Source: Gammaproteobacteria bacterium (GTDB lineage Bacteria > Pseudomonadota > Gammaproteobacteria > GCA-001735895). From it: DNA of 64,000 nt. Each line of letters starts with the position of its first letter. Within the stretch, counting starts at the first letter, position 1. Position numbers and translations under genes: made by a program. Positions 9,777-59,124 of the stretch are shown here, in pieces. Where the stretch lies: assembly GCA_050298595.1 (NCBI GenBank), contig JBNKUM010000115.1, forward strand, positions 97,178-161,177, given 5' to 3'. The notes under the pieces were generated by a model, which saw nothing but the letters and a program-made list of their open reading frames with translations, did not search any database and was not told the origin of the DNA.

Positions 9777-10079
9777 TTACTTATTTTCGCTAAGTAATGA
9801 GTCCACTTGACTCAATCTTGCGATGGTCAGTAGTGTCTCGGAAAGATGGATAAATGAAACAGTCTTTTCACTTTTCTGCACAGCTTTTTTTAGTTCGATC
9901 AGCAGTGCAACAGCCGTACTATCGACCTTAGTTACCCCACTGAAATCAATCACCCAGCCTGACAGGGTTTTACCCTTGCGAGTCATTTGCTCTAGAGCAT
10001 ACATCACTGTATCGCATATCAGCTCACCCTTAATCTGGATATACTGATTACCTTCATCGAATTTAACTTCAACACCCAT
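9777..10079 (-). CDS. mlaB: MlaB STAS-domain subunit
   Basis: IDFSGVTKVDSTAVALL STAS motif; last gene of the mla operon. Confidence 0.88.
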   Translation of the reverse strand: MGVEVKFDEGNQYIQIKGELICDTVMYALEQMTRKGKTLSGWVIDFSGVTKVDSTAVALLIELKKAVQKSEKTVSFIHLSETLLTIARLSQVDSLLSENK

Positions 10080-10105
10080 CTATCGTTTACTCGCCAGTCA
10101 GTGAC

Positions 10106-10723
10106 TCAGGAATTTTCCTGCTTATTACGATCCTGCAATGATTTGATCAAGCCATCTACGCCGGCTTCTTTTATTTTACGTGAAAAGGTCGAGCGATAAT
10201 TACTCACCAGACTGATACCATCTACACTAATATCGTATACCTTCCAACCATCATCTTTCTTATAAACCTCATAGTTCAGCGGGATGGGAAAACCACCTTT
10301 TTGTTCGATTTCAGTTCTGATCGAAACATCGCCTTTCTCCAGGCTACCGCGCATAGGCAAATACTTGATCACCTGGTCATTATATTCCAGCAACGCTTTT
10401 CCGTAAGTTCTAACCAGCAACTGACGAAATTCATTAACCAGTTTCGGCTTCTGCTGTTTATTGACCTTAACCTTATAACGTCCAAGTGCCAGATCCGTCA
10501 TGCGGTCAAAATCAAAATGCGGTAACACCTTCTCATCTACCATGGCATAGAGTCTGGCTGGATCCTGCTTGAACTCCTGTGAGCGTGACTTGATGATTTC
10601 CAGTACTTCATCAGCCGTTATTTTGATCAATTGCTCTGGGGCAGAATCTCCCGCCATCACCGGCTGTTGAAAAAATCCGGCAATAAGTACGAATACACTT
10701 AGTTTTAATAAAAGGCTTTTCAT
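10106..10723 (-). CDS. mlaC: Periplasmic phospholipid shuttle MlaC/Ttg2D
   Basis: Signal peptide, LPHFDFDRM, WKVYDISVDGISLVSNYRS. Confidence 0.95.
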   Translation of the reverse strand: MKSLLLKLSVFVLIAGFFQQPVMAGDSAPEQLIKITADEVLEIIKSRSQEFKQDPARLYAMVDEKVLPHFDFDRMTDLALGRYKVKVNKQQKPKLVNEFRQLLVRTYGKALLEYNDQVIKYLPMRGSLEKGDVSIRTEIEQKGGFPIPLNYEVYKKDDGWKVYDISVDGISLVSNYRSTFSRKIKEAGVDGLIKSLQDRNKQENS

Positions 10724-12084
10724 TGATACACACCACTCACACTTTTCAATTTGGAAACATGATTATTGTAATCATTCACAATCTTTACATATTCGGCATA
10801 CGCCAGCACATAGGCCTGCATGGCGGTAAGAATCTTCTCGGCTTCTTCCAGCCCTGCCTCAAAATCGGTGTAACTGGCAATCATCCAGCGCCTTGCCGAC
10901 TTCGCACTTTCCTTCATAGCCAGCATAGCCTTGTACTTGGATTGCACATAGTGATATTGCTCAGCCACCTGAAATGGAATGCCCTTACGCGCAAACGATG
11001 CCTTAGACACTAAAGCGTCCAGCTCAGCCTGTTCCTGTGCTACGCGAGCCGGTTGCGCATCAGCTTCCCATTGCCAGCGCATACCAATCACGGGTGAAGC
11101 TGCAACATGATTAAACGGGTCAAAAATATGCGGATTATCCAGTCGCTCACGACCCGGCGCATAAGAAAGAGACCCCGCCACACCCGCATAAATGATCGGT
11201 TTTTCACTTGATCTTTTGGCTTCAACCAGAGCACGTCGTGCTGCTAGGCCTGCCTCAATCTGCTTAAATTCGACCCGGTTTTGGGTAGCGCTATCCACCC
11301 ACTCCTGCAGTTCCATATCTGGCAGATCTACCGCCCGCAGACGTGTATCTTCCAGTTGCAACTCTTCATTTGCATCGATACCGGTTAACAACCTTAAACC
11401 TTCCATTGCTATGCTTTCCAGGCCACTGGCTTCAGCCAGATAGCGATGGATCAATCCAAGACCTGCCTCCAGGGCATATTGATTACTTAAGGTTGCCTTG
11501 CCGTTATCTTCATCCAGCCACTCATTGACTAACTCAAGTGCTGCAGTCAATCGCTTTTCGGTATCTTCCATCAGGAAACGGCCATCACGTGCGGCCAGAT
11601 AACCGTTATAGGCTTTTACTACATCCAGCTTGATAGATTCCTTCTCCAGCTCAACATCCTGTTGTTTGATAATAATGTTATTACGTGCCGCTTCCTGATA
11701 ACTCTCCAGCTGACCGAATGTGGTCAGCGGGGTGACGACACTAAAGGTCATGCTCACCCAGGGCGACAGTCCATCATTAAAATCATAGGTATCACTACGA
11801 GGGGTACAGTTACTGCTACAACTATCAGCGCCATTTTCATAAAACCCGCCGTCGACACCAGTAATCACTGCCAGAGCACTGTCTACGGCAAAGCGCCATC
11901 CACCTGTTCCTTCCGCCTCCTGCAGCAAGGCCTTCGCTTTACGCACAAAGGCCTGTTTTTCTTCAATCCTGGGATCGGCATTTAATGCCCGTTCTATGGC
12001 CTGTTCAAGATTCAACGTAACCGTTGCATTTCCCGCCAGTGGGAATAGCAATAATGACATTAATATAAGAATAGGTTTTTTCAT
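10720..12084 (-). CDS. TolC/outer-membrane efflux family protein
   Basis: Signal peptide, LNLEQAIERAL N-terminus, two OEP-like repeats (DVVKAYNGYLAA; QNRVEFKQ...KRSSEKP), C-terminal YEAG-like DFEAG. Confidence 0.8.
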   Translation of the reverse strand: MKKPILILMSLLLFPLAGNATVTLNLEQAIERALNADPRIEEKQAFVRKAKALLQEAEGTGGWRFAVDSALAVITGVDGGFYENGADSCSSNCTPRSDTYDFNDGLSPWVSMTFSVVTPLTTFGQLESYQEAARNNIIIKQQDVELEKESIKLDVVKAYNGYLAARDGRFLMEDTEKRLTAALELVNEWLDEDNGKATLSNQYALEAGLGLIHRYLAEASGLESIAMEGLRLLTGIDANEELQLEDTRLRAVDLPDMELQEWVDSATQNRVEFKQIEAGLAARRALVEAKRSSEKPIIYAGVAGSLSYAPGRERLDNPHIFDPFNHVAASPVIGMRWQWEADAQPARVAQEQAELDALVSKASFARKGIPFQVAEQYHYVQSKYKAMLAMKESAKSARRWMIASYTDFEAGLEEAEKILTAMQAYVLAYAEYVKIVNDYNNHVSKLKSVSGVYQ

Positions 12085-12093
12085 GGTTATCTA

Positions 12094-12549
12094 TTATTCC
12101 TGAGCCTTGCTGAACAGAAACTGACTGATGACCTGCTCAAGTATCACTGCTGACTGGGTATGACGTATTTCGGACTGATTCTCCAGCAATTTCTCATCGC
12201 CGCCCGGCTCCAGCCCTATATATTGTTCACCCAGCAATCCAGCCGTGTAGATACTGGCAATCGTATCATTAGGGAAAGCATTATATTTCTCATCGATCTG
12301 CATCGTTACTACAGCCTCGAAATACTTGCTGTCGTAATCAATTTTTGATACCTGACCTACCTTTACACCGGAGACCTTGACCGCTGAACGTACCTTTAGA
12401 CCACCGATATTTTCAAATTTTGCGCTCACCTGATAGAAGCCACTATTACTGATACTGCTCAGATTACTCGCCTGCATTGCCAGCATAAACAGAGCCGCAA
12501 GGCCTATGCCGACAAACATACCAACCGTTACTTCAATGCTTCGAAACAT
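12094..12549 (-). CDS. mlaD: MCE-domain protein MlaD (short form)
   Basis: N-terminal TM, FENIGGLKVRSAVKVSGVKVG, TAGLLGEQYI, TQSAVILE. Confidence 0.96.
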   Translation of the reverse strand: MFRSIEVTVGMFVGIGLAALFMLAMQASNLSSISNSGFYQVSAKFENIGGLKVRSAVKVSGVKVGQVSKIDYDSKYFEAVVTMQIDEKYNAFPNDTIASIYTAGLLGEQYIGLEPGGDEKLLENQSEIRHTQSAVILEQVISQFLFSKAQE

Positions 12550-12558
12550 GTCTAACCC

Positions 12559-13311
12559 TCATTGGAACATTATGGCAGTCAGGATAAAGTCCATACCCAG
12601 AACAGCCAGTGATGAATTTACTACCGTGCGTGTGGTTGCGCGCGCTACGCCTTCAGATGTAGGAATACAGTCGTAACCCTCAAACACAGCTATCCAGCTC
12701 ACAATAAAACCGAATACCATGCTTTTGATAACGCCATTCATAACATCATCATAAAAATCTACCTTGGCCTGAATCTGCGACCAGAAAGCACCCGAATCGA
12801 CGCCCAGCAAATCAACTCCGACCAGATAGCCGCCTAAAATACCGACCGCACTAAAGATAGCGGCCAACAATGGCATAGAGATAAATCCCGCCAGGAAACG
12901 CGGCGCAATAATACGCTCAACTGGATCAACCGCCATCATTTCAAGGCCAGAAAGCTGCTCGGTTGCTTTCATCAAACCAATCTCAGCGGTTAATGCTGAG
13001 CCCGCACGGCCAGCAAATAACAAAGCGGCTACCACCGGACCCAGTTCGCGCACCAGCGATAAATCGACCACCATACCGAGCGTATCCTCAGCACCAAAGG
13101 TATTCAGTGTGTAGTACAGCTGTAACGCCAGCACCATACCCACAAATAAACCCGCAACCAGCGTAATCAGCAGCGTATGTACACCCACCGAAAACAGTTG
13201 ATGAATGACCAGCCCAAATCGCGGGAATAGCTGGGGTAGCGCAAGCAGAATTTTACTTAAAAATATCGAACCCCGGCCTAGACGGGAAATAAAATTGACC
13301 AGTGGTTTCAT
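12559..13311 (-). CDS. mlaE: MlaE permease
   Basis: [32 protein letters not shown]. Confidence 0.97.
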
Positions 13312-13313
13312 TT

Positions 13314-14111
13314 TTACAGCTTCATCAATTGTTGTGTGATGGGGTCACCGGGATAATGGAAAGGCACAGGACCATCCGCCTGACCTTCGATAAACTGGCG
13401 CACCCATTCTGAATCAGATTTGCGGATTTCATCGACACTGCCTTCAGCCACCAGTCGGCCCTCGGAAATTATTTTTACATCATCAGCTATCGACAGGGTT
13501 TCTTCCACATCATGTGAAACCAGTATACTGCTCAGCTTTAATGCATCATTGGTATCACGAATCAATTTCACTAGCACCCCCAGAGAGATGGGATCCTGCC
13601 CGGTAAAAGGCTCATCGTACATAATCATCATCGGATCCAGCGCCAAAGCACGCGCCAGTGCAACACGTCGCGCCATACCACCGGATAATTCGGCCGGCAT
13701 CAATTCACTGGCAGCACTTAAGCCCACAGCCTGCAGCTTGATCAATACCAGATTACGGATCATCGACTCATTCAGGCGCGTATGCTCTCGCATCGGAAAA
13801 GCAATATTATCGAATACATTGATATCCGTCAGTAGCGCACCTGACTGGAATAGCATGCCCATTTTTTTGCGCATTTTGTACAGATCAGAACGATTGAGTT
13901 TATGTACATTCTGCCCCTGCACCAGAACTTCACCCTGATCCGGCTGTAACTGACCACCGATCAGTTTGAGCAGGGTGGTTTTTCCTGTACCACTAGGCCC
14001 CATCACCGCAGTGATACGGCCTTCATGAATATCCATATCCACCCCAGCGAAAATAATCTTTTCACCGCGTTTGAAATGCAGGTTTCGAATTTGAACTAAG
14101 GTATCAGTCAT
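13314..14111 (-). CDS. mlaF: MlaF ABC ATPase
   Basis: [24 protein letters not shown]-terminal DGPVPFHYP. Confidence 0.97.
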
Positions 14112-14197: not shown

Positions 14198-14797
14198 TTA
14201 ATAACCCATCAACTCGGTCAACGTGCGAATTTCAGTTAACTGTTGATAGCTGGTATCAGCACCCTGTAACCATAATGTTTTATGCTCAACAAGTGGGGCT
14301 AACTCGCTACCGCTCAGCCATTGCTCGATCCATTCACGATACTGACGAATATTTTCAGCCATGGGTAAAATTGCAAAGCGTGCATTTCGTGTAGACGAAT
14401 GGCTCGGAGTCCACACATCATCAAACTTACATATTTCTAATTCAGCAGATAATACTGTTTGCAAATTTTCTTTGTGTAACAAATTGTTACCAGCAGACTG
14501 ATCAACAATGAGTGCAGAAATTCGGCAGTCATCGTTTTGCATAAGTGACTGTATGATGGGAATTTGAGTGGAATGTTCGATATATAAACCAAGTTCAAAC
14601 TCCTCAGGTAAATCAGTAATCCACTCAGACAATAGAGCAGTCTGTGAGCCAAGCTCTGGCAGGCTCAGGCAGACAGTGTTAAATTCATTACTGTAGAAAG
14701 CCAGCTTCCAGTCCTCAGGAATATCATCCGGATAGAACCCTTGCTGCTTTGGGAAGTTTATCCAGTCGAACACTCCGACCGATATTGAATAAGTCAT
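14198..14797 (-). CDS. Hypothetical protein with DUF72-like N-terminus
   Basis: 199-aa ORF; FYPDDIPEDWKLAFYSNEFNTV resembles the DUF72/YecE N-terminal motif; the rest is not recognisable. Confidence 0.6.
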   Translation of the reverse strand: MTYSISVGVFDWINFPKQQGFYPDDIPEDWKLAFYSNEFNTVCLSLPELGSQTALLSEWITDLPEEFELGLYIEHSTQIPIIQSLMQNDDCRISALIVDQSAGNNLLHKENLQTVLSAELEICKFDDVWTPSHSSTRNARFAILPMAENIRQYREWIEQWLSGSELAPLVEHKTLWLQGADTSYQQLTEIRTLTELMGY

Positions 14798-22208: not shown

Positions 22209-23156
22209 ATGCAATCCAGCGTGACGATAGGTGATTTTCATCAACGCTTTCAAAAACGCTTAAAGCTGTCCTTCTCCTCCGGTCAGGTTGGTCTGGACAG
22301 AGAAATCAAACTCTCCGCCGGTGAGCAAAAATACCAGGCTGTTGATTATCTTAATATTATTCGCCCCTCCAGCGTCATTGTTATAGGCTTACAGGAGTCG
22401 GCTTACCTCGCCTCTCTTAGCCTGCAGCATCAGCAAAGAATTTTCGAAAAATTATTCACAGGCCCTGCCTGTACCATTATTCTCAGCCAGGGCTCTCATC
22501 TTAATGAGGCACTCATCAGGCACATTGCAGAATTCTCCATCGCTGTTTTCAAATCAGAATTAGCAGATACAAATCTACTATCCGACCTGCGCTATTTCCT
22601 CAACCTGGCACTCGCAGAAACCACAACCGAGCACGGTGTTTTTCTTGAAGTCTTCAGTATCGGTACATTTATCACCGGTGACAGTGGTGTAGGTAAAAGT
22701 GAGCTTGCCCTTTCCCTGATTTCGCGTGGGCATCGGCTTATAGCGGATGATATTACCGAATTCTCACGCATATCTACCGGAGTCATAGATGGTATACACC
22801 CTGGATTATCCAACGACTTTATGGAAGTACGGGGTCTTGGTATTCTCAATATTCGCGCCATGTTTGGTAGTAATGCTTTAAGACGAAATAAAACCCTGCG
22901 TATGATCGTCAACATGGTTCAGTTTACTGCTGAGAATCAGCACCAGTTCGATAGACTAGGCACCACCCAGCATACACGTAATATGTTGGGTCTCGAGATA
23001 CCAGAGCTTACCTTACCAGTCGCTCCGGGTCGCAATCTGGCCGTACTGGTGGAGGCTGCAGCTCGTAACCATTTGCTAAAAATAGGTGGATACAACTCTG
23101 CAGATGACTTTATCGAACGCCAAAGACTGGCAATACAGGCTAATGCAAAAGGATAA
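22209..23156 (+). CDS. hprK: HPr kinase/phosphorylase
   Basis: HGV..., GDSGVGKSELAL, RGHRLIADD, MEVRGLGI, PGRNLAVLVE. Confidence 0.95.
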   Translation: MQSSVTIGDFHQRFQKRLKLSFSSGQVGLDREIKLSAGEQKYQAVDYLNIIRPSSVIVIGLQESAYLASLSLQHQQRIFEKLFTGPACTIILSQGSHLNEALIRHIAEFSIAVFKSELADTNLLSDLRYFLNLALAETTTEHGVFLEVFSIGTFITGDSGVGKSELALSLISRGHRLIADDITEFSRISTGVIDGIHPGLSNDFMEVRGLGILNIRAMFGSNALRRNKTLRMIVNMVQFTAENQHQFDRLGTTQHTRNMLGLEIPELTLPVAPGRNLAVLVEAAARNHLLKIGGYNSADDFIERQRLAIQANAKG

Positions 23157-35140: not shown

Positions 35141-35511
35141 TAGAATTCCAGCTCCTGAGTATGTCCAACCAATATGCGTATTTCACCACTCGACTGAAGC
35201 CCCGGTGAAAGATAGATAGCGTCTGAAGGTACCCCAAGAGAAACTAACCAGTCCTTCAATTCCGCAGCCCACAATTCGCCACTGTCTTCACCAGGATAAC
35301 TCAGCTTTAAACCTGCATCATCCAGGCTGCCCCAGTAACTTACGGCAAGCCTTAATGGCTCCATTTGTGGCAATACATCCCCAGTTCTGGGCCTTGCCCA
35401 GCTATCAGCGCTAAGGTTAAAAATCCTCAGCGAATTTGCCTGCAAGGGTAAGCAGGTCAGCAGAAGGATTAATATCAGTCCTCGATAAATCAGATGACGT
35501 GTTTTAATCAT
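35140..35511 (-). CDS. Small exported hypothetical protein
   Basis: 123 aa with signal-peptide-like N-terminus; overlaps the yhdP stop and the nitrilase start. Confidence 0.75.
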   Translation of the reverse strand: MIKTRHLIYRGLILILLLTCLPLQANSLRIFNLSADSWARPRTGDVLPQMEPLRLAVSYWGSLDDAGLKLSYPGEDSGELWAAELKDWLVSLGVPSDAIYLSPGLQSSGEIRILVGHTQELEF

Positions 35512-38500
35512 TGTAAACGATTACTCTCAGGTTGAATTGGATTATCGGATTTGGGCGTATAGTCTGGTTTTTCAATCAACTCAATATCTGGATTTTCCCA
35601 GGTACCACTGACTTTATATTCTATTTCAACACTTTTTTCGATGGGTTTCTTGAAAATTTTCTGGATAAGCAGTAATCCCCAGCCCACTGTGTTGCTGATA
35701 GCCAGCGAGCCAATGACCGGTAGTGTCTCTCCAATTTTTGGCACTATAACCATTATTTGATCATAGGTTTTTTCTCGCAGGTTGGTGCTGCCATAAATAT
35801 TAACTTTTGCAGAATCAGAATCCATCGAAGCATTCTCTGTATCCATAATTTCGCCATGGATATTAAAGCGCCCCTTAATATCGTTAAACTGCATGCCTTT
35901 ATTTATAACATCGCCAAAATCCAGAAATAAACGTTTTGGCAGTGCATTTAAACTTAATAACCCAACAAAACGTCCAGCACCAGGCTCTACATTTCGCAAA
36001 TAACCATCTTCAAGTGAAAGTTCAACTTCTCCGATCAGAGTTTCCCAGTTCATTTTAAATAAGCTATCACCCCATCCAATCTGACCATTGAATTTAACCC
36101 TGCCACCCTGAATTGTCTCTCCCAATCCTAGATTATTAATAGTTGCACCAAAATTCTCACCCCTGAGATCGATATTGAATACACTCACATGCTGTTTGCT
36201 TTCAGCATTAAACTGCCAGTGCCCGGATGATTTTAACTGCACCTGGTCTTTTGCAAAATCCAGTTGGTCGATAACAAACATATTGGATTGATTACTGGTT
36301 TTTAATTTGAAGTCCCTAAATGTCATGGATCCTAAGAAGGCGAGTTTACTGCTGATATTTAAATTCGGCATATCTGTAATATCAGGGTTCACTTTTTTAT
36401 CTGCATCGTTTTTTTTGTCAGCATCCATTTTTTGCCATCGGATATAATCCAGCTCCGCAGATATTGGTTTTGATGCAGTATATTTGAATGGAATGACTAT
36501 ACGACCTTTGATTAGCGATGAAGTCACATCCCCCACTAAAGCACTATTATCATTCGACATTTGTATTTGAGTATCTTTGACTTTCTGGTTAGCCAACTCG
36601 CAATCCTGTATGCGTAAGTCAACAGAGCTGATCTGTTCTAATAGCGAAATTGAGCTAACCTGATCACTTCCAAAATAGGTTTTATAATAATCTGTCCAGC
36701 CATTAATATTTACCTTATCAATATTTCCCATCAGCTCTAAGCCTTGCTGTGGGATTTCAGGTTTATTACCCTCACCAAACATCACAGCCATGGATTGCAA
36801 CTGATAACTGCCCTGCTTATCCAGCTGCAATCTTCCTGAACTGGAAAAAACATCACCCATTTTCAACGCATATTCCAAGTCACGATTTTTAATAGTAATA
36901 TCGGTTTTAACAGCCTGTATAGCAGCCGTGTCAAGGCTAATTGGTTGCGGAAAATTTAACTGAGTCCCCTTTAAATAGGAACTCGCTTTTACACTAACTC
37001 CTTTTTTTTCATACCCATCGTGATCATTCGGAATTGAGACATCTACACTCCAGTTACTTTTCCCTTTCACAGGTTTACTTAAATAATCAGGCAATGCCGT
37101 CATAAGTCCTGATGTATCCATATCTCCCAGCATTGTGATATTGATAGCATGATTGATTCTATCGCTATCAATATTCAGCACAACCGGGTCGTGCCTATAA
37201 CGCCCTTTAATTTTACTGGCTGTTAGATTTTCATTATCAACTTTCAACTTACCATTTATCTTATCCAGCTCGACCATCCAGTTCGGTATAAATAACTTTA
37301 CATTCTGCAAGCGGGTATTAGCCTGAACTGAAACTCTCTTTTTTGAGTCAGCTTCAAGTGGAATAAAAATATCCACATCACTAGCAATCAATCCTGAAAC
37401 GCTATGTTTCTGAGTTTTAATTTCATCAAAAAAATTGAGGACTGGTAGCGCACTTAAAGTATCTAGCAAATCATCAGCACTTGCATCGCTTTTAGCATGA
37501 ATAAACAATTCAGCATTCATCAAATCTGGGATGCTTACCTCTACCTGATCAACTTCAGTAGCGGCAAATTTCGTCTGTGAGAATTTGATATCCATTGCGG
37601 TATTATGAAAACTCACGATTCCTTTCCCACCGCTGACCGATGGCCATCCACCATAGATATCTATTTCTGGATTTTCAGCATTGAATAGCGCATGAAATTC
37701 ACCTGCCTGATGTTGCTGCAATACAGACAGGTTTTGCAGGCGTCCATGAAACAGGAGTTCACCATCAATTACATGTGCATCTTTTATCGAGCTATCGAGC
37801 CAGGCCAGGGTTTTCTCTGGTATCACGGTAACGGGTAAATACCTTGAGGTAGAGCTCCCTTTTCCATCCTGATAATGCGCTCTCAGGCCCATAAATGGTA
37901 CACCCTGCTGAGGGATCTCCAGCCAGGCATGCCCCTTAAGCTTGATATCATTATTGCTCATGATAAATTCATCCGACTCCAGTAACAACTGATCTGCTAT
38001 CTGGCTAAACCTGATATTAGCGTTGAATGCTGCTAACTTAATTGGCAGTCTAAATAACTCGCCAAAATCAACTGAAAGCCGTGATGATGATAACTGAATC
38101 TCACCTTTTCCATTCGATACTTTCACTTTTCCTGCCAAACCATTCACAGCGGGTATCTGCCCGTCTCGCTGACTTCTTAAATGCTCAAAATCAAAGCTCA
38201 GGGTAGACTGATTAATATCGTTGACATCAAATTCTGCCACAAAGTTTTTTATCTTTGCACGTAGCGCTATGCGATTAATCAGACTGAATGATTCTTCATT
38301 GCGGATGATATCGGATAAAAGTATCTGTAAGGCTTGAAGATCAATGCCATCAACCCATACTTTAGGTCTTGCATGCGCTTGATCGATAATTAATCGTGAA
38401 TTAAAACCAGGCAGCCTACTCTGCCCCCTATACACATGATCAAATTCACTATCTATTTGCCAGTCGCCCTGTAGATAAATCGCTTTTTGATGAAGTTTGA

Positions 38501-39404
38501 ATCTTATTTCCTGATTCATTTCATCGCTTACTTGCTGTAGACCAGCCTGATCACCACTAATACCTGAAGTAACAACTTCAGAAAACTCGGCATCATTGAT
38601 AATTTGACGGGGCTGATAATGAGCCATATTGATCCAGCTTTTTAAACTGACTCTGGCTTCGTCCACACCGGGCACCTTGATATCAAACAACTGAGCTAAA
38701 CTGGCAAGCCCAACAGCATCAACATCCAGATACATTTGTTGCGACTCGGCATCGCCGATTAATTTTACATTCAACTGCTTACCCAGTGCTGCCGGTAATT
38801 GACTATTTAGAGTTAGCGATAATAAATCTCCAGCTCTGGAACTGTGTAACCCCGTTCTCTGGATCAGGTACTCAGTATCATTATATTTATCAAGAATTTG
38901 AAGTATTCGGATATCGATACTGACAAAATCGGGGAGACGAGAAAAAAAAGCGTGCACATCAAGTTTATCTTCGATGTTTTGCTGACCTTTTAAGGGTATA
39001 TCCTTTAGCCACCAGTTAGCAGACTTATCTCTCACAACAATCAATTTTTCTATCTTGCTGTGCAACGACAATAGTTTGAGTTCCCCATGTAGCAGGGTAG
39101 AAAACAGTTTTACACTGAGTTCAAGCTGATTAATAGATAGCGCTTGCGAACGCCCGGGTATGCTAAGTGATGCCCCATGAATTTTTAGTATTGGATGAAA
39201 ACCCCGCCAACTACCCTCCACAGATTCCAGCGATACGCCTGTGATTCCATATGCAGCGAGTTCGCTTTCAATTTCAGACTTAAAGTGATCAACCTGTGCA
39301 ATCAAAACACGCCCTGTCAAACTCAATGAAGCCGTGACAAAAACTAAAATAATAATGAGTCGCAAGCTGACATGCGCCATGATTGCGCTTGTTCTAACAA
39401 GCAT
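35508..39404 (-). CDS. yhdP: YhdP/AsmA2 family phospholipid-bridge protein
   Basis: 1298 aa, N-terminal TM, WLDSSI..G, GAGRFVGLLSLNALPKRLFLDF, YKVSGTWENP; rng-yhdP-tldD synteny. Confidence 0.92.
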   Translation of the reverse strand: MLVRTSAIMAHVSLRLIIILVFVTASLSLTGRVLIAQVDHFKSEIESELAAYGITGVSLESVEGSWRGFHPILKIHGASLSIPGRSQALSINQLELSVKLFSTLLHGELKLLSLHSKIEKLIVVRDKSANWWLKDIPLKGQQNIEDKLDVHAFFSRLPDFVSIDIRILQILDKYNDTEYLIQRTGLHSSRAGDLLSLTLNSQLPAALGKQLNVKLIGDAESQQMYLDVDAVGLASLAQLFDIKVPGVDEARVSLKSWINMAHYQPRQIINDAEFSEVVTSGISGDQAGLQQVSDEMNQEIRFKLHQKAIYLQGDWQIDSEFDHVYRGQSRLPGFNSRLIIDQAHARPKVWVDGIDLQALQILLSDIIRNEESFSLINRIALRAKIKNFVAEFDVNDINQSTLSFDFEHLRSQRDGQIPAVNGLAGKVKVSNGKGEIQLSSSRLSVDFGELFRLPIKLAAFNANIRFSQIADQLLLESDEFIMSNNDIKLKGHAWLEIPQQGVPFMGLRAHYQDGKGSSTSRYLPVTVIPEKTLAWLDSSIKDAHVIDGELLFHGRLQNLSVLQQHQAGEFHALFNAENPEIDIYGGWPSVSGGKGIVSFHNTAMDIKFSQTKFAATEVDQVEVSIPDLMNAELFIHAKSDASADDLLDTLSALPVLNFFDEIKTQKHSVSGLIASDVDIFIPLEADSKKRVSVQANTRLQNVKLFIPNWMVELDKINGKLKVDNENLTASKIKGRYRHDPVVLNIDSDRINHAINITMLGDMDTSGLMTALPDYLSKPVKGKSNWSVDVSIPNDHDGYEKKGVSVKASSYLKGTQLNFPQPISLDTAAIQAVKTDITIKNRDLEYALKMGDVFSSSGRLQLDKQGSYQLQSMAVMFGEGNKPEIPQQGLELMGNIDKVNINGWTDYYKTYFGSDQVSSISLLEQISSVDLRIQDCELANQKVKDTQIQMSNDNSALVGDVTSSLIKGRIVIPFKYTASKPISAELDYIRWQKMDADKKNDADKKVNPDITDMPNLNISSKLAFLGSMTFRDFKLKTSNQSNMFVIDQLDFAKDQVQLKSSGHWQFNAESKQHVSVFNIDLRGENFGATINNLGLGETIQGGRVKFNGQIGWGDSLFKMNWETLIGEVELSLEDGYLRNVEPGAGRFVGLLSLNALPKRLFLDFGDVINKGMQFNDIKGRFNIHGEIMDTENASMDSDSAKVNIYGSTNLREKTYDQIMVIVPKIGETLPVIGSLAISNTVGWGLLLIQKIFKKPIEKSVEIEYKVSGTWENPDIELIEKPDYTPKSDNPIQPESNRLQ

Positions 39405-45943: not shown

Positions 45944-47152
45944 CTATATGTCACGCAAACCATCAGATGGTTCGATACGCGAAGCCCTGATTCCACCTAA
46001 TATCGCAGCCCCTGCTGCAACCGTCAGCGTAAGCCCCAGAGCCCAGAAAAAGTGTTCGGGTAATAGATAACAGATTACGCGATCTATTTTAAGATTGGGT
46101 GCCAGAATCTGGTTTATTGTCTGCTCAGCCGTCAGATATATCAGCACCGCAAGTAACCAGCCAAGAAATCCGGTATAGAGTGCCTGCAGCACTGGAAACA
46201 ATATTATTTTACCACCCTGAAAACCCACCAGGCGCAGGATACTCAATTCCTTTTGCTTGCGATCTACATTTGCCCACAAACTCGCTCCTAATGAGAAAGA
46301 AAAACCCACCGCCCCCACCGAGGCGATGATCCAGAATATAATGGTCAGGTTATGATTAATGGATTGCACACTGAGTATCTGCTCAATATTGGCCTTGATA
46401 TTCACACCCTGTTGCTCCATTTCTGTCACCAACGGAACCACTTGATAGATCGTGTGCGCATACATTCTAAACGAGGGATATTCCCGCTGCTCAGGTTCCC
46501 TATCCCCCTTCCAGCCTAGCGCTACAACCTCACGACCATCCTTGAAACTTTCTGTGGCCAGCAGTAAATCCAGACTGACAAAAGCGACTTTACGGTTAAT
46601 CGTTCGCTCAGGCACAATATCTATCACCTGTAAATCCAGATGAACTCGTTCGCGCTTGCCTCTAAACTGACGGGCCAGACTGGCGTTGATTTTTTCGCCT
46701 TTTTTTGCATTCAGCTTATTCGCAATGCTTTCACTGAGCACAACCTGATAATAGCCCTGAGGCTTGTTCTCCAGACCCTTGAGTAATGGATCACCTGTAT
46801 CAGTCGCTAGCATCTCTGTAGAAAAAATCCGACCTACATTATCACTTTTTAACTGAATGGTAGCAGCCAATGCGCGGGTCTTGGGAATAATAAAGGCGAC
46901 ATCTTCTCGAGCACCATAGGTTTTAAACCACTCGTCGTCGTAGCGACCGCTGCCAACAGCTCGAATCTCACGATTATGCGGGTCTTCGATCAATTCGTTG
47001 ATCATAGAAGTGACGATGCCAAACTTTAACCCAAACAGAATCATCATGGGCGCCAGAACCGAGGCCAGCGCAAGGATAAAGCATCCACTCATGCGCCACT
47101 CGTGGCTATAATCGCGAAAACTCAGGGTTAGTATATTTCTGAACTGGCTCAT
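45944..47152 (-). CDS. ABC permease, FtsX/LolE/MacB-type (TagS-like)
   Basis: LAPMMILFGLKFG N-terminal TM, large periplasmic domain, NVDRKQKELSILRLVG, C-terminal TMs. Confidence 0.85.
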   Translation of the reverse strand: MSQFRNILTLSFRDYSHEWRMSGCFILALASVLAPMMILFGLKFGIVTSMINELIEDPHNREIRAVGSGRYDDEWFKTYGAREDVAFIIPKTRALAATIQLKSDNVGRIFSTEMLATDTGDPLLKGLENKPQGYYQVVLSESIANKLNAKKGEKINASLARQFRGKRERVHLDLQVIDIVPERTINRKVAFVSLDLLLATESFKDGREVVALGWKGDREPEQREYPSFRMYAHTIYQVVPLVTEMEQQGVNIKANIEQILSVQSINHNLTIIFWIIASVGAVGFSFSLGASLWANVDRKQKELSILRLVGFQGGKIILFPVLQALYTGFLGWLLAVLIYLTAEQTINQILAPNLKIDRVICYLLPEHFFWALGLTLTVAAGAAILGGIRASRIEPSDGLRDI

Positions 47153-47174
47153 ATTAGTGTTTACAGGCCCTTAA

Positions 47175-47900
47175 TTAATCGCGAAAAGTCGATTGGTAGA
47201 CATTGCCATTATCCAGCACCTCAGCCTCCTGGTGCAGGCTGCGCAAATCCATTTTATACACATGCGCCCAGTCATGACTGGCGGTAATCATGGTAATTTT
47301 CAACCCCTTTACCAGTTCCATCACCACGGCCATGATTTTTCTGGCCGTAATGGGATCTAGCGAAGCGGTGGGCTCATCGGCTAGTAATATGGATGGACGA
47401 TGTGCCAGTGCCCGTGTAAACGCCACGCGTTGACGTTCTCCTGCGGAAAGCAGTCCTGGTAATTTATCCAGCTGGCGATGGATACCCATAACACGCGCCA
47501 TCGAACGCGTTGAATCATCCTCCGGTAGATTCATCAGCTTACGTGGCAATTCGATATTTTCCCGCACGGTTAAATAGGGCAATAACCCGCCCTGCTGTAA
47601 TACATAACCAATATGCTGCTTACGCAGTTGAGACAGCTGATTTTGTTTCTTGCGTTGCCAGAGTGCATCTACAGGATGCTTTTCATTCTCACCCGGCGTC
47701 AGCATAAACTCATCGCTGGAATCAGGACGTAATGCCAGTGCCAGCATATCCAGCAAGGTACTTTTACCGCAGCCACTATGCCCTACCAGGGCGATATTTT
47801 CCTGAGCCTTTATTTTTAGATCAGGTATAACAAGGCGAAATCCTGTGCCGTCAACAAGACGGGATTTCACTACATTTTTGAGTGAATAAATAACAGACAT
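47175..47900 (-). CDS. ABC ATPase, LolD-like (TagT-like)
   Basis: GHSGCGKSTLLD, GYVLQQGGLLPYL, LSAGERQRVA, LADEPTASLD. Confidence 0.9.
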   Translation of the reverse strand: MSVIYSLKNVVKSRLVDGTGFRLVIPDLKIKAQENIALVGHSGCGKSTLLDMLALALRPDSSDEFMLTPGENEKHPVDALWQRKKQNQLSQLRKQHIGYVLQQGGLLPYLTVRENIELPRKLMNLPEDDSTRSMARVMGIHRQLDKLPGLLSAGERQRVAFTRALAHRPSILLADEPTASLDPITARKIMAVVMELVKGLKITMITASHDWAHVYKMDLRSLHQEAEVLDNGNVYQSTFRD

Positions 47901-47920
47901 ATAACTCAGGGAATTCTAGA

Positions 47921-49951
47921 TCAGGGCAACAGGTCAAGTACAACAGGGAAGACAGAGTTACCATTCACCGCACCACCACCAGGAGTTACCCACAGGTCAG
48001 TATGGTCGTGTAGAGCCTGATAGTAATTAATCTTGCTTTCCAGTCTATGCATGAACTCGATCTGCTCTTTGGCGGACCATTCCTGCCAGCTCGCCAGACT
48101 CAGGTTCATCACTTCACCGGTATAGGGTAGATCGTCGATATATTCACGCATATAGCCCATATCGGCCAGATTACCACCAGTCTGTGAGGTTCTATTGGCT
48201 ACCGAAGCTGGGTCACGACTTACTGATGCAGCCAGACTTTTCAAATCATTTAAGAATCCAGCTGGTGTCAACACACCCTCTTCTGCCAGATCCAGTACCT
48301 TTTGCAATACGCTTTTTAAATCAGATAACTGATCACGAGTTAACAGCACCCTGACATCTACTGTCGACTTTTGTGGATCGGTGAAATCTCGATCTACCAT
48401 CCAGGCATCGAAAACCTTGGGTAAGGGTTGGCCATTTTCTTTCTGCAAGTAGCGTAAACGTAAAGCATTTCCTAATTTTGCAACCCGGCCCTGTAATTGT
48501 GCCAGCTGAGGAGTTACGGGTGCTGGGGTTGGAGTTGCCTGCGCCGGTTGCTGTGCCTGTTGTTGCTGTTCGGGTATTGGTAAAGGTAACACCCCATTCA
48601 CGGTTGCCAGAACCTGCTGGGTAATCTGATTCGCCAGAACTTCTAGCACATTACCGAACTCATCCACCTTGCCGAGCTCCACGCCGTAATAAAAATCACC
48701 AATGCCTGGATAGTAGGAAAGTTGTTTGTATAGTTTCTCAGCTCTTGGGTGATTGGCCGCTGGGGAATCGGAACGTAGGTGCAGCACCCAGATTGATATA
48801 CCCTTATCATAAGCCAGTTGACGTAAAGCCTTGGCGCTCAGGCCCGTCGCCCCCAGTGAGTCATCACTTTCACGCGGGCCTGCATCGGTAATCAGAACAA
48901 CGTAGCGGGCGTCGAAATCATCCCAGCTGGTATTTTCAATCGCTGCACGAATACCTGCATAGGCATCTTCACGATAATCTCGACTTGATATAGATGAAGG
49001 TTCCAGGGTATTAACTCGTTCGAAGAAAGTATCAGCATTGGTACCCTGTTTCAGGTTAACGTAGGTGCGTGTTAGATAATCCAGTTCTGGGACCTGTTCG
49101 ACATTATCGCGAAACGCGGTTAAGCCGAAGCTAACCTGATTATTAAGACCCTGACGCGCAATAGAGTTATACACTTTACGCACTGCTTCACGCGTACGAT
49201 CAATATAGGGTCCCATTGATATCGTGGAATCTATGACAAAATGTATACCGCTGCGATAGTTACGCTGCTCGTTTGTAGCCGCAGCAGTTAGTACAGCATT
49301 GCTGTCTTTTTTTGACGATTGAGTGGATGGTTTTTCATTTACCACTTCATTTTGGCCACCTAAAGGGACACTGGCAATTTGTAGCATTCGCGCCTGCTCG
49401 TTACCCAAATACACATCTTCGTGTTGCTTGATCGGTACCAGATAGAAATTATTGCGGATATCTATGTGTCCTTCTGGTTGAATCGCAATAACCGGATTAT
49501 TGGCCAGCTTTTCGTCATTCACTACTGCCTGATAAAGTCGTGCATAGGCTTCCTGATCGTTATCATCAATCAGCTTCTGCAGGGAATCATGCTCTCCAAA
49601 CATCATTACCCGCTGAGTATCCTGCGGATCTTTAAAGGAAACGGTTAACGCCTGATTCCATACAATAGTTTGCGACTCGGGAATCCATCCTGAAATTCGC
49701 CCAAAACTGTCATGACCTATCTTGAGCCAGTTGCTTTCACGCTGGTAAACATAGAAGACACTGAATGGAACGAGCGTTTCACCTGCTGAAGTCATGTCGG
49801 GTTGCTGATAGAGCCTGGCATCAGGAATAGTCAACACACGTTGAAACAGTGTTTTTTTACCATCCATCAACAGGGGCTTTTCTAGCGCCCAGAGTTGAGT
49901 CGTCAATAGTGTTAATACAATTAACAACAGGCGAGACACGACTGGTTTCAT
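47921..49951 (-). CDS. Exported vWA-domain protein resembling the periplasmic part of T6SS kinase PpkA, without a kinase domain
   Basis: True start likely ATG 49951 (MKPVVSRLL, signal peptide), 676 aa; KPLLMDGKKTLFQRVL, MIDAS FVIDSTISMGPYI, VLITDAG, VRVLLTRDQLSDL, C-terminal VLDLLP. Confidence 0.8.
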   Translation of the reverse strand: MKPVVSRLLLIVLTLLTTQLWALEKPLLMDGKKTLFQRVLTIPDARLYQQPDMTSAGETLVPFSVFYVYQRESNWLKIGHDSFGRISGWIPESQTIVWNQALTVSFKDPQDTQRVMMFGEHDSLQKLIDDNDQEAYARLYQAVVNDEKLANNPVIAIQPEGHIDIRNNFYLVPIKQHEDVYLGNEQARMLQIASVPLGGQNEVVNEKPSTQSSKKDSNAVLTAAATNEQRNYRSGIHFVIDSTISMGPYIDRTREAVRKVYNSIARQGLNNQVSFGLTAFRDNVEQVPELDYLTRTYVNLKQGTNADTFFERVNTLEPSSISSRDYREDAYAGIRAAIENTSWDDFDARYVVLITDAGPRESDDSLGATGLSAKALRQLAYDKGISIWVLHLRSDSPAANHPRAEKLYKQLSYYPGIGDFYYGVELGKVDEFGNVLEVLANQITQQVLATVNGVLPLPIPEQQQQAQQPAQATPTPAPVTPQLAQLQGRVAKLGNALRLRYLQKENGQPLPKVFDAWMVDRDFTDPQKSTVDVRVLLTRDQLSDLKSVLQKVLDLAEEGVLTPAGFLNDLKSLAASVSRDPASVANRTSQTGGNLADMGYMREYIDDLPYTGEVMNLSLASWQEWSAKEQIEFMHRLESKINYYQALHDHTDLWVTPGGGAVNGNSVFPVVLDLLP

Positions 49952-49964
49952 AAACAGATCCGGA

Positions 49965-50558
49965 TTAATTAAAGTTGAGTAATAACTGTTGAGCGGCAGT
50001 GTTGCCATACCTGGCCTCGTCTTTTGCCCATTGACCCAGGTTCTCAAGGCGAGCCCTGGCAGGTTCGAAACCTTTTTCCAGAGATTGTGAGTACCATTTG
50101 TAGGCCTGCACCGCATCCGCCTGATCCAGCAGGTTATCTTCTGCACGGAACAGGGTTGGATCACTCATTTCAGCCATCACCATCATGGCGTCCACATCGC
50201 CTTCTCTAGCTGCGAAGAAATACATCAGGTGCGCGTCAGCCAGACTCCCTTCACTGGTATATAGTGCCGCTTTAGCCATCACTTCGTCTAAGGGGTAAGG
50301 CTTACCCTGCTTGCGTAACTGGCTAATATATTCTCTAGCGCGCATACCGGCAGGCACTAGTTCTTCTCGATTGATCTGACCTTCTTCCATCTGTGCAGCA
50401 TTGTTTTCAGGCGCATCATCAGTGGTGGCCTGTTGGGGGGCGATATTGCCGCGTCCAGAGGCGATGAAGATATAGATAATAAGCCCGATTACGATAAGCG
50501 AAACCCACAGCAGGGGATTTTTAGTGGATTTATTATGTGCTTTTTCTGCTTGTGCCAT
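49965..50558 (-). CDS. Membrane-anchored Sel1-like repeat protein
   Basis: N-terminal TM; AAREGDVDAM, DAVQAYKWYSQSLEKG, ARYGNTAAQQLL Sel1-like helices. Confidence 0.75.
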   Translation of the reverse strand: MAQAEKAHNKSTKNPLLWVSLIVIGLIIYIFIASGRGNIAPQQATTDDAPENNAAQMEEGQINREELVPAGMRAREYISQLRKQGKPYPLDEVMAKAALYTSEGSLADAHLMYFFAAREGDVDAMMVMAEMSDPTLFRAEDNLLDQADAVQAYKWYSQSLEKGFEPARARLENLGQWAKDEARYGNTAAQQLLLNFN

Positions 50559-56687: not shown

Positions 56688-57619
56688 TACCGGGATTCGA
56701 AATCTTCGTAGGCCTGGACAATATTCTGCACCAATGGGTGGCGCACTACATCTCGTGCAGAAAAATGACTAAAACCAATACCTTCTACATTATGCAAAAT
56801 ATCAAGCACCTGTCTGAGCCCCGATGACTGGTGTGAGGGCAGATCGGTCTGGGTAATATCTCCGGTAATCACCGCACGCGAGCCAAAACCGACACGGGTC
56901 AGGAACATCTTCATCTGTTGAGGTGTCGTGTTCTGGGCTTCATCCAGTATCACGAAGGAATTGTTTAGAGTGCGTCCACGCATATAAGCCAAGGGAGCAA
57001 CCTCTATGACATGACGGGCAATCAGTTTCTCCACCTTATCAAAACCCAGCATCTCATACAGCGCATCGTAGACGGGACGCAGGTAAGGATCGACCTTCTG
57101 CGCCAGGTCACCGGGTAGAAAGCCCAGCTTTTCACCCGCCTCGACAGCGGGTCTGGTCAGCACCAGTCGTGTCACGGTCTCCTGTTCTAGCGCTTCTACC
57201 GCTTTCGCAACCGCCAGATAGGTTTTTCCGGTTCCGGCAGGGCCGATACCAAAATTGACATCATATTTTTCGATGGACTCGAGATATTCATTCTGGTGTT
57301 GGGATTTGGGGAAAATCTGGGTTTTACGTAACTTGACGATCTGCTTCAGATCTTCAGGTTTTTGATCATTTTTATACATCATCAAAAGTTCCGATACTTT
57401 ACGCTCGGTGAGAATCCCTTTCCTGGCATGTTGAATAAAGGACTCAAGACAGGCAGAAGCACGACTGACATTCAATGGTTCACCATCAATAAGCAGCTCA
57501 TCATTTTGATGACGGCATTTGATATCAAACCAGATTTCAAGATCTTTGATATGTTTTTGAAATTCGCCGAACAGGCTGGCGCGTTGATCGGTATTCAGTT
57601 CAGAGATATTAATGTTCAG
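56687..57619 (-). CDS. ybeZ: PhoH-family ATPase (YbeZ), probable CTG start
   Basis: [30 protein letters not shown]; frame stays open 48 codons above the TTG at 57475, giving [20 protein letters not shown]. Confidence 0.9.
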
Positions 57620-59006: not shown

Positions 59007-59124
59007 TCAGGAAAATTTCCTTTCTCACTTGTCCGGTTATTTTACAATTTCAATAGAATATTATTTAAAAAAGTGACCTAACAACTAGCCATAGCTTATA
59101 TAGCGCAACATCCAGATAAATTCA

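What the first reader, a model, noticed from the sequence alone, without database searches (positions are those of the whole stretch)
9777..14111. Mla lipid-transport operon with a TolC-like channel between mlaD and mlaC
Seen: the order is mlaF-mlaE-mlaD-[454-aa TolC-family]-mlaC-mlaB. The gap mlaD-tolC is 9 bp and tolC overlaps mlaC by ATGA, so they are translationally coupled. There is no mlaA/vacJ, no membrane-fusion protein and no RND pump nearby. Established: the canonical outer-membrane partner is the MlaA-porin complex, and in many Betaproteobacteria vacJ/mlaA occupies this same slot between mlaD and mlaC. TolC-associated MCE systems described elsewhere use a long periplasm-spanning MlaD. 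Here MlaD is short (151 aa) and a soluble MlaC is present. Inference: a hybrid system in which a TolC-type trimer replaces or supplements MlaA as the outer-membrane dock for the MlaC shuttle. The protein also has a CSSNC insert (possible disulfide loop) near its first predicted beta hairpin.
Basis: partly seen in the sequence, partly recalled or inferred. Interest (0 to 1): 0.78.

Follow-up and report, generated by a model that had tools for sequence, protein, structure and literature searches.

The report
TolC-like channel gene paired with mlaC
A lipid-transport (Mla) operon of an uncultured marine gammaproteobacterium carries a divergent TolC-type outer-membrane channel gene locked to the gene for the lipid carrier MlaC, a pairing that recurs in many genomes and is fused into one protein in another phylum, which suggests an undescribed outer-membrane end for this lipid route.

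Summary
The minus strand reads mlaF-mlaE-mlaD-[454-aa TolC-family gene]-mlaC-mlaB, with a 9-bp mlaD/TolC gap and an ATGA overlap into mlaC.

The 454-aa protein is a full-length but divergent outer-membrane factor. Pfam OEP scores 65 bits, while the NCBIfam TolC and NodT models score only 21-23 bits. The AF2 model has pLDDT 92 and TM about 0.75 to TolC/OprM at 13-18% identity.

The gene is not a passenger:
- In 78 of 78 related loci with downstream DNA, mlaC follows it directly. The two overlap by 4 or 1 bp in 70 of 73 clean cases.
- One clade of 31 loci lost mlaFED and mlaB from the site but kept the TolC-like/mlaC pair.
- In Polyangia-type metagenomic proteins, 24 clusters are natural TolC-like+MlaC fusions.

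I found no paper describing this pairing.

My reading is that the TolC-like trimer is the outer-membrane partner of MlaC. Whether it replaces or supplements MlaA could not be tested, because no whole genome was available. No MlaA lies in the window or the 80 loci. A complex prediction gave no verdict. I rate it a new variant of a known kind, interest about 0.7.

The parts
13314..14111 (-). mlaF, ABC ATPase (265 aa)
   Evidence: NCBIfam MlaF model 383 bits (below its 441 cut-off) and Pfam ABC_tran. Found upstream in 40 of 80 related loci.
12559..13311 (-). mlaE, permease (250 aa)
   Evidence: Pfam MlaE 254 bits. NCBIfam perm_MlaE_1 407.5 bits against a cut-off of 315.
12094..12549 (-). mlaD, short single-MCE protein (151 aa)
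   Evidence: TIGR04430 183.6 bits against a cut-off of 135. Pfam MlaD covers residues 39-116.
12085..12093 (-). 9-bp spacer between the mlaD stop and the TolC-like start
   Evidence: Read directly from the sequence.
10720..12084 (-). TolC-like outer-membrane factor (454 aa, P0001). A divergent, non-lipoprotein member of the family.
   Evidence: Pfam OEP 65.5 bits in two stretches. AF2 pLDDT 92.2 and pTM 0.84. Foldseek TM 0.71-0.77 to TolC, OprM and ST50.
12025..12084 (-). Predicted signal peptide (residues 1-20, ...PLAGNA/TVT) with no lipobox cysteine
   Evidence: Read from the translation. The cleavage site is my inference; no predictor was run.
11806..11820 (-). CSSNC (Cys89, Cys93) in extracellular loop 1
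   Evidence: Both cysteines are present in 59 of 63 relatives and both are absent in 4 loci of one clade.
11110..11160 (-). Extracellular loop 2 (APGRERLDNPHIFDPFN), one of the most conserved segments
   Evidence: Mean entropy 0.79 bits against 1.19 for the mature protein, in 63 sequences.
10843..10857 (-). Periplasmic tip turn between helices 7 and 8 (AGLEE), the most conserved segment
   Evidence: Mean entropy 0.64 bits. G411 aligns with the glycine of the SVGTRT stretch of E. coli TolC in a 16%-identity alignment. That this is the H7/H8 tip turn of TolC is recalled.
10720..10723 (-). ATGA overlap of the TolC-like stop with the mlaC start
   Evidence: The same 4-bp overlap occurs in 61 of 73 cleanly resolved related loci and a 1-bp overlap in 9 more.
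10106..10723 (-). mlaC, periplasmic lipid carrier (205 aa)
   Evidence: Pfam MlaC 185.7 bits. A profile of 63 orthologues matches solved MlaC/Ttg2D structures with E from 1e-27 to 1e-48.
9777..10079 (-). mlaB, STAS protein (100 aa)
   Evidence: Pfam STAS_2 and STAS. NCBIfam mlaB_1 44.5 bits, below its cut-off of 90.

Best explanation
The 454-aa protein is a trimeric TolC-type outer-membrane channel that has become the outer-membrane component of a Mla-type lipid route. MlaFEDB works at the inner membrane, MlaC carries the lipid, and MlaC hands lipid to or takes lipid from the TolC-like trimer.

Shown: the fold, the operon structure, the conserved coupling to mlaC, and the natural fusions.

Inferred:
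- Physical docking of MlaC on the trimer. The periplasmic tip is my guess for the site, because its AGLEE turn is the most conserved segment. The shortest fusion linkers would also allow a site nearer the equatorial domain.
- The direction of transport and the lipid carried.

Whether MlaA is also present in these genomes is unknown.
For: 1. Fold. The protein is a full-length outer-membrane factor. AF2 gives pLDDT 92.2, four barrel strands, and two helices of 67-68 residues with partner helices. TM to TolC, OprM and ST50 is 0.71-0.77.

2. Separate subfamily. NCBIfam TolC and NodT score 21-23 bits against cut-offs of 225 and 210. In the 50%-identity representative library, the full-length representatives among the first eight listed are 40-48% identical. 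Later full-length hits have 32% identity or less.

3. Adjacency. 233 genome stretches encode relatives, of which 80 were fetched. mlaC follows directly in 78 of the 78 loci that have downstream DNA. Of 73 cleanly resolved junctions, 61 overlap by 4 bp, 9 overlap by 1 bp, and 3 have gaps of 0-11 bp.

4. Pair survives loss of the pump genes. 32 loci have no mlaD or mlaE hit upstream, each with at least 2.5 kb of upstream DNA held. None of the 27 of them with enough downstream DNA has mlaB. They still keep the TolC-like/mlaC pair. The 31 of them in the tree fall in one clade with 6 undetermined loci (SH-aLRT 100). That clade is nested among lineages that carry mlaFED, so this was one loss or relocation, and the pair was kept through later diversification.

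5. Natural fusions. 24 of the 120 listed relatives of P0192 carry both PF02321 and PF05494 in one protein of 629-718 aa. They are 58-100% identical to P0192, and some come from contigs of up to 1.48 Mb. The alignment shows no internal signal peptide and a variable low-complexity linker. The two named rows of the listing, one of them a fusion, are called Polyangia.

6. Same order in that lineage. P0322 is an apparent read-through of adjacent genes and shows mlaD directly upstream of the TolC-like gene there too.

7. Slot. In Ralstonia pickettii the same slot between MlaD and MlaC holds MlaA. This is inferred from the accession order in Supplementary Dataset 1 of PMC10665443.

8. Conservation. 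Within the family, the periplasmic tip turn (0.64 bits) and extracellular loop 2 (0.79 bits) are more conserved than the protein as a whole (1.19 bits).
Against: - No binding evidence exists.
- Conserved adjacency alone is weak in this data set. murA and hisG keep their places in nearly all loci that reach that far, without any functional link to Mla.
- The MlaC start was taken as the in-frame start nearest the TolC-like stop, which leans toward small gaps.
- The gammaproteobacterial and Polyangia-type TolC-like proteins share only about 25% identity. In the tree the Polyangia-type rows are the most distant outgroup, so a common Mla-linked origin is not shown.
- TolC channels are water-filled ducts with no known lateral gate. 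How a phospholipid would enter or leave one is unexplained.
- The tip is of the usual outer-membrane-factor kind, with a glycine at the turn. It could therefore still dock a hexameric adaptor of an ordinary pump encoded elsewhere.
- 153 of the 233 related genome stretches were not examined.
- The tree is the quick IQ-TREE run. The careful search did not finish.
Confidence: 0.65

Rival explanations
1. The protein is an ordinary exit duct for an efflux pump or type I secretion system encoded elsewhere. It sits in the mla operon only for co-regulation with envelope genes, as tolC does in the outer-membrane gene cluster of Negativicutes.
For: - It has canonical outer-membrane-factor architecture and length.
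- Its tip glycine aligns with a TolC glycine.
- In Negativicutes tolC follows mlaEFD without any proposed direct role (passages of PMC10665443).
- Unrelated genes (murA, hisG) are also syntenic here.
Against: - No membrane-fusion protein or RND/ABC pump partner lies in the 64-kb window.
- Matches to the curated TolC and NodT models are very weak.
- The pair with mlaC is kept after mlaFED and mlaB left the site.
- 24 fusion clusters with MlaC are hard to explain by co-regulation.
Confidence: 0.15
2. The pair TolC-like+MlaC, with or without MlaFEDB, exports a special lipid or other hydrophobic molecule to the cell surface. Candidates are a hopanoid-like or glycolipid-like compound. Its job would not be glycerophospholipid asymmetry. 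TolC-dependent glycolipid export in cyanobacterial heterocysts is a precedent (recalled, not checked here).
For: - The best NCBIfam match of the MlaC is HpnM at 96.1 bits, slightly above MlaC at 90.9 bits. Both are below their cut-offs.
- Among distant relatives of the TolC-like protein are single proteins that also carry MMPL or LPG_synthase_TM domains.
- TolC-type ducts open to the outside.
Against: - The locus has the same flanking genes as the housekeeping mla locus of E. coli as I recall it: yrbG-kdsD-lptCAB-rpoN on one side and murA on the other. That argues for the housekeeping system.
- MlaD passes the curated MlaD cut-off.
- The MMPL and LPG_synthase fusions were not checked for being artefacts.
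Confidence: 0.15

Closest known systems
Canonical Mla system of Proteobacteria (MlaFEDB, MlaC, MlaA with OmpC/F)
   Same: - MlaF, E, D, C and B are all present, with a short MlaD and a soluble MlaC.
- The locus has the same neighbours as the E. coli locus as I recall it: yrbG, kdsD, lptC/A/B and rpoN on one side, murA on the other.
   Different: - A TolC-family gene sits between mlaD and mlaC and overlaps mlaC.
- No MlaA lies in the window or in the 80 related loci. The genome-wide status is unknown.
- The TolC-like protein has no similarity to MlaA.
Betaproteobacterial mlaFED-mlaA-mlaC-mlaB operons (example: Ralstonia pickettii 12J)
   Same: An outer-membrane component is encoded in the same slot between mlaD and mlaC. 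This rests on the accession order in Supplementary Dataset 1 of PMC10665443.
   Different: There the slot holds the lipoprotein MlaA. Here it holds a beta-barrel/alpha-barrel channel of an unrelated fold.
Negativicutes mlaEFD-tolC-tamB cluster (Veillonella parvula; PMC10665443, passages read)
   Same: A tolC homologue directly follows mlaD in an envelope-biogenesis locus.
   Different: That system has no MlaC and no MlaA. It uses a 419-aa MlaD with a long helical region and its own C-terminal beta-barrel, and no role was assigned to tolC. Here MlaD is 151 aa, MlaC is present, and MlaC is the conserved partner.
TolC/OprM outer-membrane factors of tripartite pumps
   Same: The protomer fold and length are the same, and it matches Pfam OEP.
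   Different: - Sequence identity to solved members is 13-18%.
- It falls far below the curated TolC and NodT cut-offs.
- There is no adaptor or pump gene nearby.
- It has a conserved extracellular loop and a Cys pair.

Membership tests
Outer-membrane factor (TolC/OEP, PF02321) | Two OEP repeats recognised by the Pfam model above its gathering score | tested here: met
   65.5 bits against a cut-off of 22, in two stretches.
Outer-membrane factor (TolC/OEP, PF02321) | Protomer fold: four barrel strands plus long helical hairpins of about 100 Angstrom | tested here: met
   AF2 pLDDT 92.2, strands at 64-75, 106-121, 297-308 and 326-336, and helices at 125-192 and 343-409. TM 0.71-0.77 to TolC, OprM and ST50.
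Outer-membrane factor (TolC/OEP, PF02321) | Homotrimer forming one 12-stranded barrel | not testable with these tools
   Three copies of 434 residues exceed the 1000-residue limit of complex prediction, and no model coordinates are returned.
Outer-membrane factor (TolC/OEP, PF02321) | Works with a periplasmic adaptor (HlyD/MFP) and an inner-membrane pump, often encoded nearby | tested here: not met
   No HlyD, RND or MacB-type neighbour matched among the 63 window ORFs of 110 aa or more plus mlaB. The rest of the genome could not be searched.
NCBIfam TolC (TIGR01844) and NodT (TIGR01845) subfamilies | Score at or above the curated cut-off | tested here: not met
   21.3 against 225.15 and 23.2 against 210.05 bits. 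There is no lipobox cysteine in the signal peptide.
Mla system | MlaF, MlaE, MlaD, MlaC and MlaB encoded together | tested here: met
   MlaE and MlaD pass curated cut-offs. MlaF, MlaC and MlaB match the right models below the equivalog cut-offs.
Mla system | Outer-membrane lipoprotein MlaA (PF04333) | tested here: inconclusive
   MlaA is absent from the window ORFs. tblastn with E. coli MlaA found nothing better than E = 1.6 in 1,107,585 bases of window plus 80 loci. In E. coli mlaA is encoded away from mlaFEDCB, so absence from a locus says little about the genome.
MlaA family | The 454-aa protein is itself a MlaA homologue | tested here: not met
   The only Pfam match is OEP.
Negativicutes-type transenvelope Mla (PMC10665443) | Long MlaD with a helical extension and C-terminal beta-barrel, and no MlaC | tested here: not met
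   MlaD is 151 aa and MlaC is present.

The most novel reading that the evidence does not exclude
An outer-membrane-factor trimer has taken over the role of MlaA, so a TolC-type duct conducts membrane lipid rather than drugs or proteins. MlaC would act as its docking adaptor, either as a free shuttle (as here) or covalently tethered three per trimer (as in the Polyangia-type fusions). This would be a third architecture for MCE lipid transport, beside the MlaA/porin shuttle and the long-MlaD/PqiB/LetB bridges.
Probability: 0.3. Interest if true: 0.85.

Novelty: new variant of a known kind. Interest (0 to 1): 0.72.

Why it matters
How phospholipids leave or enter the outer membrane is still debated, and MlaA with a porin is the only characterised outer-membrane end of the MlaC shuttle. 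A TolC-family protein genetically locked to MlaC, and fused to it in another phylum, points to a second kind of outer-membrane terminus.

It would also extend TolC-type ducts to membrane-lipid traffic. The natural fusion proteins give a ready construct for structural work. The clade that keeps only the pair gives a natural test of which parts depend on each other.

Tried and rejected
- Complex prediction of one TolC-like protomer (residues 21-454, 63-row alignment) with MlaC (residues 25-205, 63-row alignment) gave no verdict. The scores were 0.23 and 0.22 against a mark of 0.32, and the controls were not run. This is neither for nor against binding. A trimer could not be submitted because 1302 residues exceed the limit.

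- A genome-wide MlaA search was not possible.

- I tried to reach a cultured member, with Woeseia as a lead, using a profile of the clade without mlaFED. The best 120 hits named no cultured organism.

- The ESM Atlas search returned only OEP clusters from several phyla and nothing more.

- Promoter and terminator scans were at or below chance. There were no Rfam families or tRNAs in the window.

- P0322 (MlaD+OEP in one protein) was rejected as a true fusion. It keeps the TolC-like protein's own Met and signal peptide after a stretch that looks out of frame, so it shows adjacency only.

- I first thought the DPFNH loop motif was unique to this subfamily. The alignment with E. coli TolC places D322 and N325 opposite a DDSN in TolC, so I make no such claim.

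- Seven literature searches returned nothing on a TolC/MlaC pair. One apparent hit was a false match to a FastTree option.

- Lumen hydrophobicity was not assessed because no model coordinates were available.


Full report
**1. What is in the sequence**

On the minus strand between 14111 and 9777 lie six ORFs in a row. Pfam and NCBIfam name them as follows:

| Gene | Coordinates | Length | Main evidence |
|---|---|---|---|
| mlaF | 13314-14111 | 265 aa | ABC_tran; MlaF model |
| mlaE | 12559-13311 | 250 aa | 407.5 bits against a cut-off of 315 |
| mlaD | 12094-12549 | 151 aa | TIGR04430, 183.6 bits against 135 |
| OEP/TolC-family | 10720-12084 | 454 aa | Pfam OEP, 65.5 bits against 22 |
| mlaC | 10106-10723 | 205 aa | Pfam MlaC, 185.7 bits |
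| mlaB | 9777-10079 | 100 aa | STAS protein |

Nine bases separate the mlaD stop from the TolC-like ATG. The TolC-like stop overlaps the mlaC start as ATGA.

Downstream come murA, hisG and hisD. Upstream lies a 199-aa ORF with no family match. Beyond it, divergently, come fabA, yrbG, kdsD, an HAD-type hydrolase gene, lptC, lptA, lptB and rpoN. These are the neighbours of the E. coli mla locus as I recall it, with one extra gene inserted.

None of the 63 window ORFs of 110 aa or more, nor the 100-aa mlaB ORF, matches MlaA, an HlyD-type adaptor or an RND pump. The window holds no Rfam family and no tRNA.

**2. What the 454-aa protein is**

- It starts with a signal-peptide-like stretch without a lipobox cysteine.
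- The AF2 model, built on a 76-row alignment, has mean pLDDT 92.2 and pTM 0.84. It shows four strands and two helices of 67-68 residues with shorter partner helices, which is the protomer of an outer-membrane factor of normal length.
- Foldseek finds TolC, OprM, ST50, CusC, OprN and others at TM 0.71-0.77 and 13-18% identity. A profile search of PDB sequences finds the same families at E values from 1e-6 to 1e-18.
- The curated NCBIfam TolC and NodT models give only 21-23 bits against cut-offs above 200.
- In the 50%-identity representative library, the full-length representatives among the first eight listed are 40-48% identical. Every later full-length hit is at 32% identity or less.

It is thus a member of the TolC superfamily but of a separate subfamily.

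The CSSNC motif lies in the loop between strands 1 and 2, on the cell-surface side. Both cysteines are present in 59 of 63 relatives and missing together in four (L072, L074, L077, L078). Those four group in one clade of the tree. This is what a disulfide pair would show.

Within the family, the most conserved segments are the turn between helices 7 and 8 (AGLEE, 0.64 bits mean entropy) and extracellular loop 2 (0.79 bits). The mature protein as a whole is at 1.19 bits.

**3. Is the gene order conserved?**

A word-index search found 728 relatives. The best 120 are 64-99% identical, and the named ones all come from uncultured Gammaproteobacteria or Proteobacteria. A scan of one genome per species found 233 stretches encoding relatives, and the 80 best were fetched.

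tblastn with the window's proteins gave the following:

- Two loci end at the TolC-like gene. In the other 78 of 78, mlaC follows at once.
- Where the mlaC ORF could be resolved cleanly (73 loci), it overlaps the TolC-like gene by 4 bp in 61 and by 1 bp in 9. In 3 it starts 0-11 bp after it.
- I took the in-frame start nearest the stop, which favours small distances. In the window itself the overlap is read directly.
- 40 loci have mlaF, mlaE and mlaD (or, where the DNA is cut short, mlaE and mlaD) directly upstream.
- 32 have no mlaD or mlaE hit upstream, each with at least 2.5 kb of upstream DNA held (up to about 8 kb).
- 8 are too short to tell.
- mlaB was detected in 22 of 36 of the first group and in 0 of 27 of the second.

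In the second group the TolC-like gene faces fabA across a short spacer, as seen in L028.

A quick IQ-TREE of 88 rows was built from the window, 79 loci and 8 outgroups. L044 was left out as incomplete, and the careful search did not finish. The tree places all 31 loci without mlaFED, plus 6 undetermined ones, in a single clade (SH-aLRT 100) nested among lineages with mlaFED.

The simplest reading is one loss or relocation of mlaFED and mlaB from the site. The TolC-like/mlaC pair was then kept through the diversification of that clade.

One caution applies. murA and hisG also keep their places in nearly all loci that reach that far, so adjacency alone does not prove a functional tie.

**4. Evidence from another phylum**

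Among distant representatives (about 25% identity), P0192 is a single 677-aa protein with an OEP part followed by a MlaC domain.

Searching with it gave the following:

- 24 of the 120 listed clusters carry both domains. They are 629-718 aa long and 58-100% identical to P0192.
- Some come from contigs of 118 kb to 1.48 Mb.
- The same listing holds unfused TolC-like proteins of about 470 aa.
- The two rows that carry an organism name, one of them a fusion, are called Polyangia.

The alignment of all 24 shows both parts conserved and no internal signal peptide. The low-complexity linker ranges from roughly 15 to roughly 100 residues.

P0322 combines MlaD and OEP. However, it keeps the TolC-like protein's own Met and signal peptide after a stretch that looks out of frame. 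I therefore take it as a read-through of neighbouring genes. It shows only that mlaD lies directly upstream of the TolC-like gene there too.

The order mlaD, TolC-like, MlaC thus recurs in a second phylum, where the last two are often one polypeptide.

The C-terminus of an outer-membrane-factor protomer ends at the equatorial domain, on the periplasmic side. This is established from TolC structures, and in the model here helix 415-450 ends the chain. A MlaC tethered at that point is therefore topologically sound. The shortest linkers would hold MlaC near the trimer rather than let it travel to the inner membrane. That last point is my inference.

**5. What is known**

I read passages and Supplementary Dataset 1 of Grasekamp et al. 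2023 (PMC10665443).

- In Negativicutes mlaEFD is directly followed by tolC and tamB. MlaA and MlaC are absent, and a 419-aa MlaD with its own beta-barrel is proposed to bridge the envelope. No role is given to tolC.
- In Ralstonia pickettii the accession numbers run MlaF, E, D, A, C, B, so MlaA occupies the slot that the TolC-like gene occupies here.
- The same table shows Woeseia oceani with mlaF-E-D-B-A in a row and its single MlaC elsewhere.
- It also shows three Bradymonadales genomes with MlaC but no MlaA.

The last two points are leads that I could not follow.

Seven full-text searches returned no paper on a TolC/MlaC pair or fusion. The library does not cover most subscription journals.

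**6. How it most likely works**

Shown:
- a TolC-fold outer-membrane protein;
- co-translation with mlaC;
- long-term retention of the pair;
- natural fusion of the two in another phylum.

Inferred: the trimer is the outer-membrane station of the MlaC route.

With a short MlaD (151 aa) and a duct reaching about 100 Angstrom into the periplasm, a gap remains that MlaC would cover, either as a shuttle or as an adaptor. The conserved tip turn is the most likely docking site.

Direction and cargo are open. A duct that opens to the outside fits outward delivery. The position in the housekeeping mla locus fits asymmetry maintenance. How a lipid would enter a water-filled duct is unexplained.

I put 0.65 on the statement that the protein is a functional outer-membrane partner of MlaC. 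I put about 0.3 on it having replaced MlaA.

**7. Rivals**

- An ordinary exit duct kept in the operon for co-regulation (0.15). This is weakened by the fusions and by the pair surviving alone.
- A dedicated exporter of a special lipid (0.15). The MlaC scores slightly better on the HpnM model than on the MlaC model, both below cut-off. Distant relatives are found fused to MMPL or LPG-synthase domains, though these were not checked for artefacts.

**8. What stayed unchecked**

- MlaA and mlaFEDB in whole genomes.
- 153 of the 233 related stretches.
- The context of the 25-32% relatives.
- The trimer and its lumen.
- Any physical interaction.

**9. Verdict**

I rate it a new variant of the Mla system with a TolC-family component tied to MlaC. 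It appears undescribed in the literature I searched and is directly testable.

Noticed in passing
window 14198-14797 (-): A 199-aa ORF (P0122) lies 86 bp upstream of mlaF on the same strand. It has no Pfam or NCBIfam match and no signal peptide. tblastn finds it at the same place in related loci, at 79% identity in L001 and 24-57% in others. Whether it belongs to the operon is unknown.
   Followed up: partly
window 35508-39404 (-): A 1298-aa YhdP homologue (Pfam YhdP, 659.6 bits) is encoded in the same window. YhdP is the AsmA-like protein implicated in outward phospholipid transport.
   Followed up: no
window 45944-50558 (-): An FtsX-type permease and an ABC ATPase are followed upstream by ORFs of 747 and 197 aa with no Pfam match. 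This could be an uncharacterised envelope ABC system.
   Followed up: no
window 57609-60213 (-): Two adjacent ORFs of 465 and 362 aa have no Pfam match at E <= 1e-5.
   Followed up: no
window 22209-23156 (+): An HPr kinase/phosphorylase homologue sits between ptsN-like (EIIA-2) and rapZ genes downstream of rpoN. As I recall, E. coli has no hprK at this place.
   Followed up: no
P0208, P0221, P0204 (distant relatives): These are single proteins that join a TolC-like part to an MMPL transporter (1230 aa), to an LPG_synthase_TM domain (822 aa), or to an unassigned 240-aa N-terminal part (692 aa). I did not check whether they are true fusions or read-through artefacts.
   Followed up: partly
L031 (CAXMQY010000129.1): The record is titled 'uncultured Haliangium sp.' (Myxococcota). 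Its TolC-like gene and its neighbours fall inside the gammaproteobacterial clade without mlaFED. This may be a binning or labelling issue.
   Followed up: no
Supplementary Dataset 1 of PMC10665443: Woeseia oceani has mlaF-E-D-B-A with consecutive accessions and its only MlaC elsewhere. Three Bradymonadales genomes list MlaC but no MlaA. Both are candidates for carrying a TolC-like/MlaC pair.
   Followed up: partly
L008 4787-7303; L050, L052, L054, L060, L066 between mlaC and murA: In several loci 1-4 kb of extra DNA lies between the mla genes and murA. In L062 and L066 it includes a second ABC ATPase-like hit.
   Followed up: no
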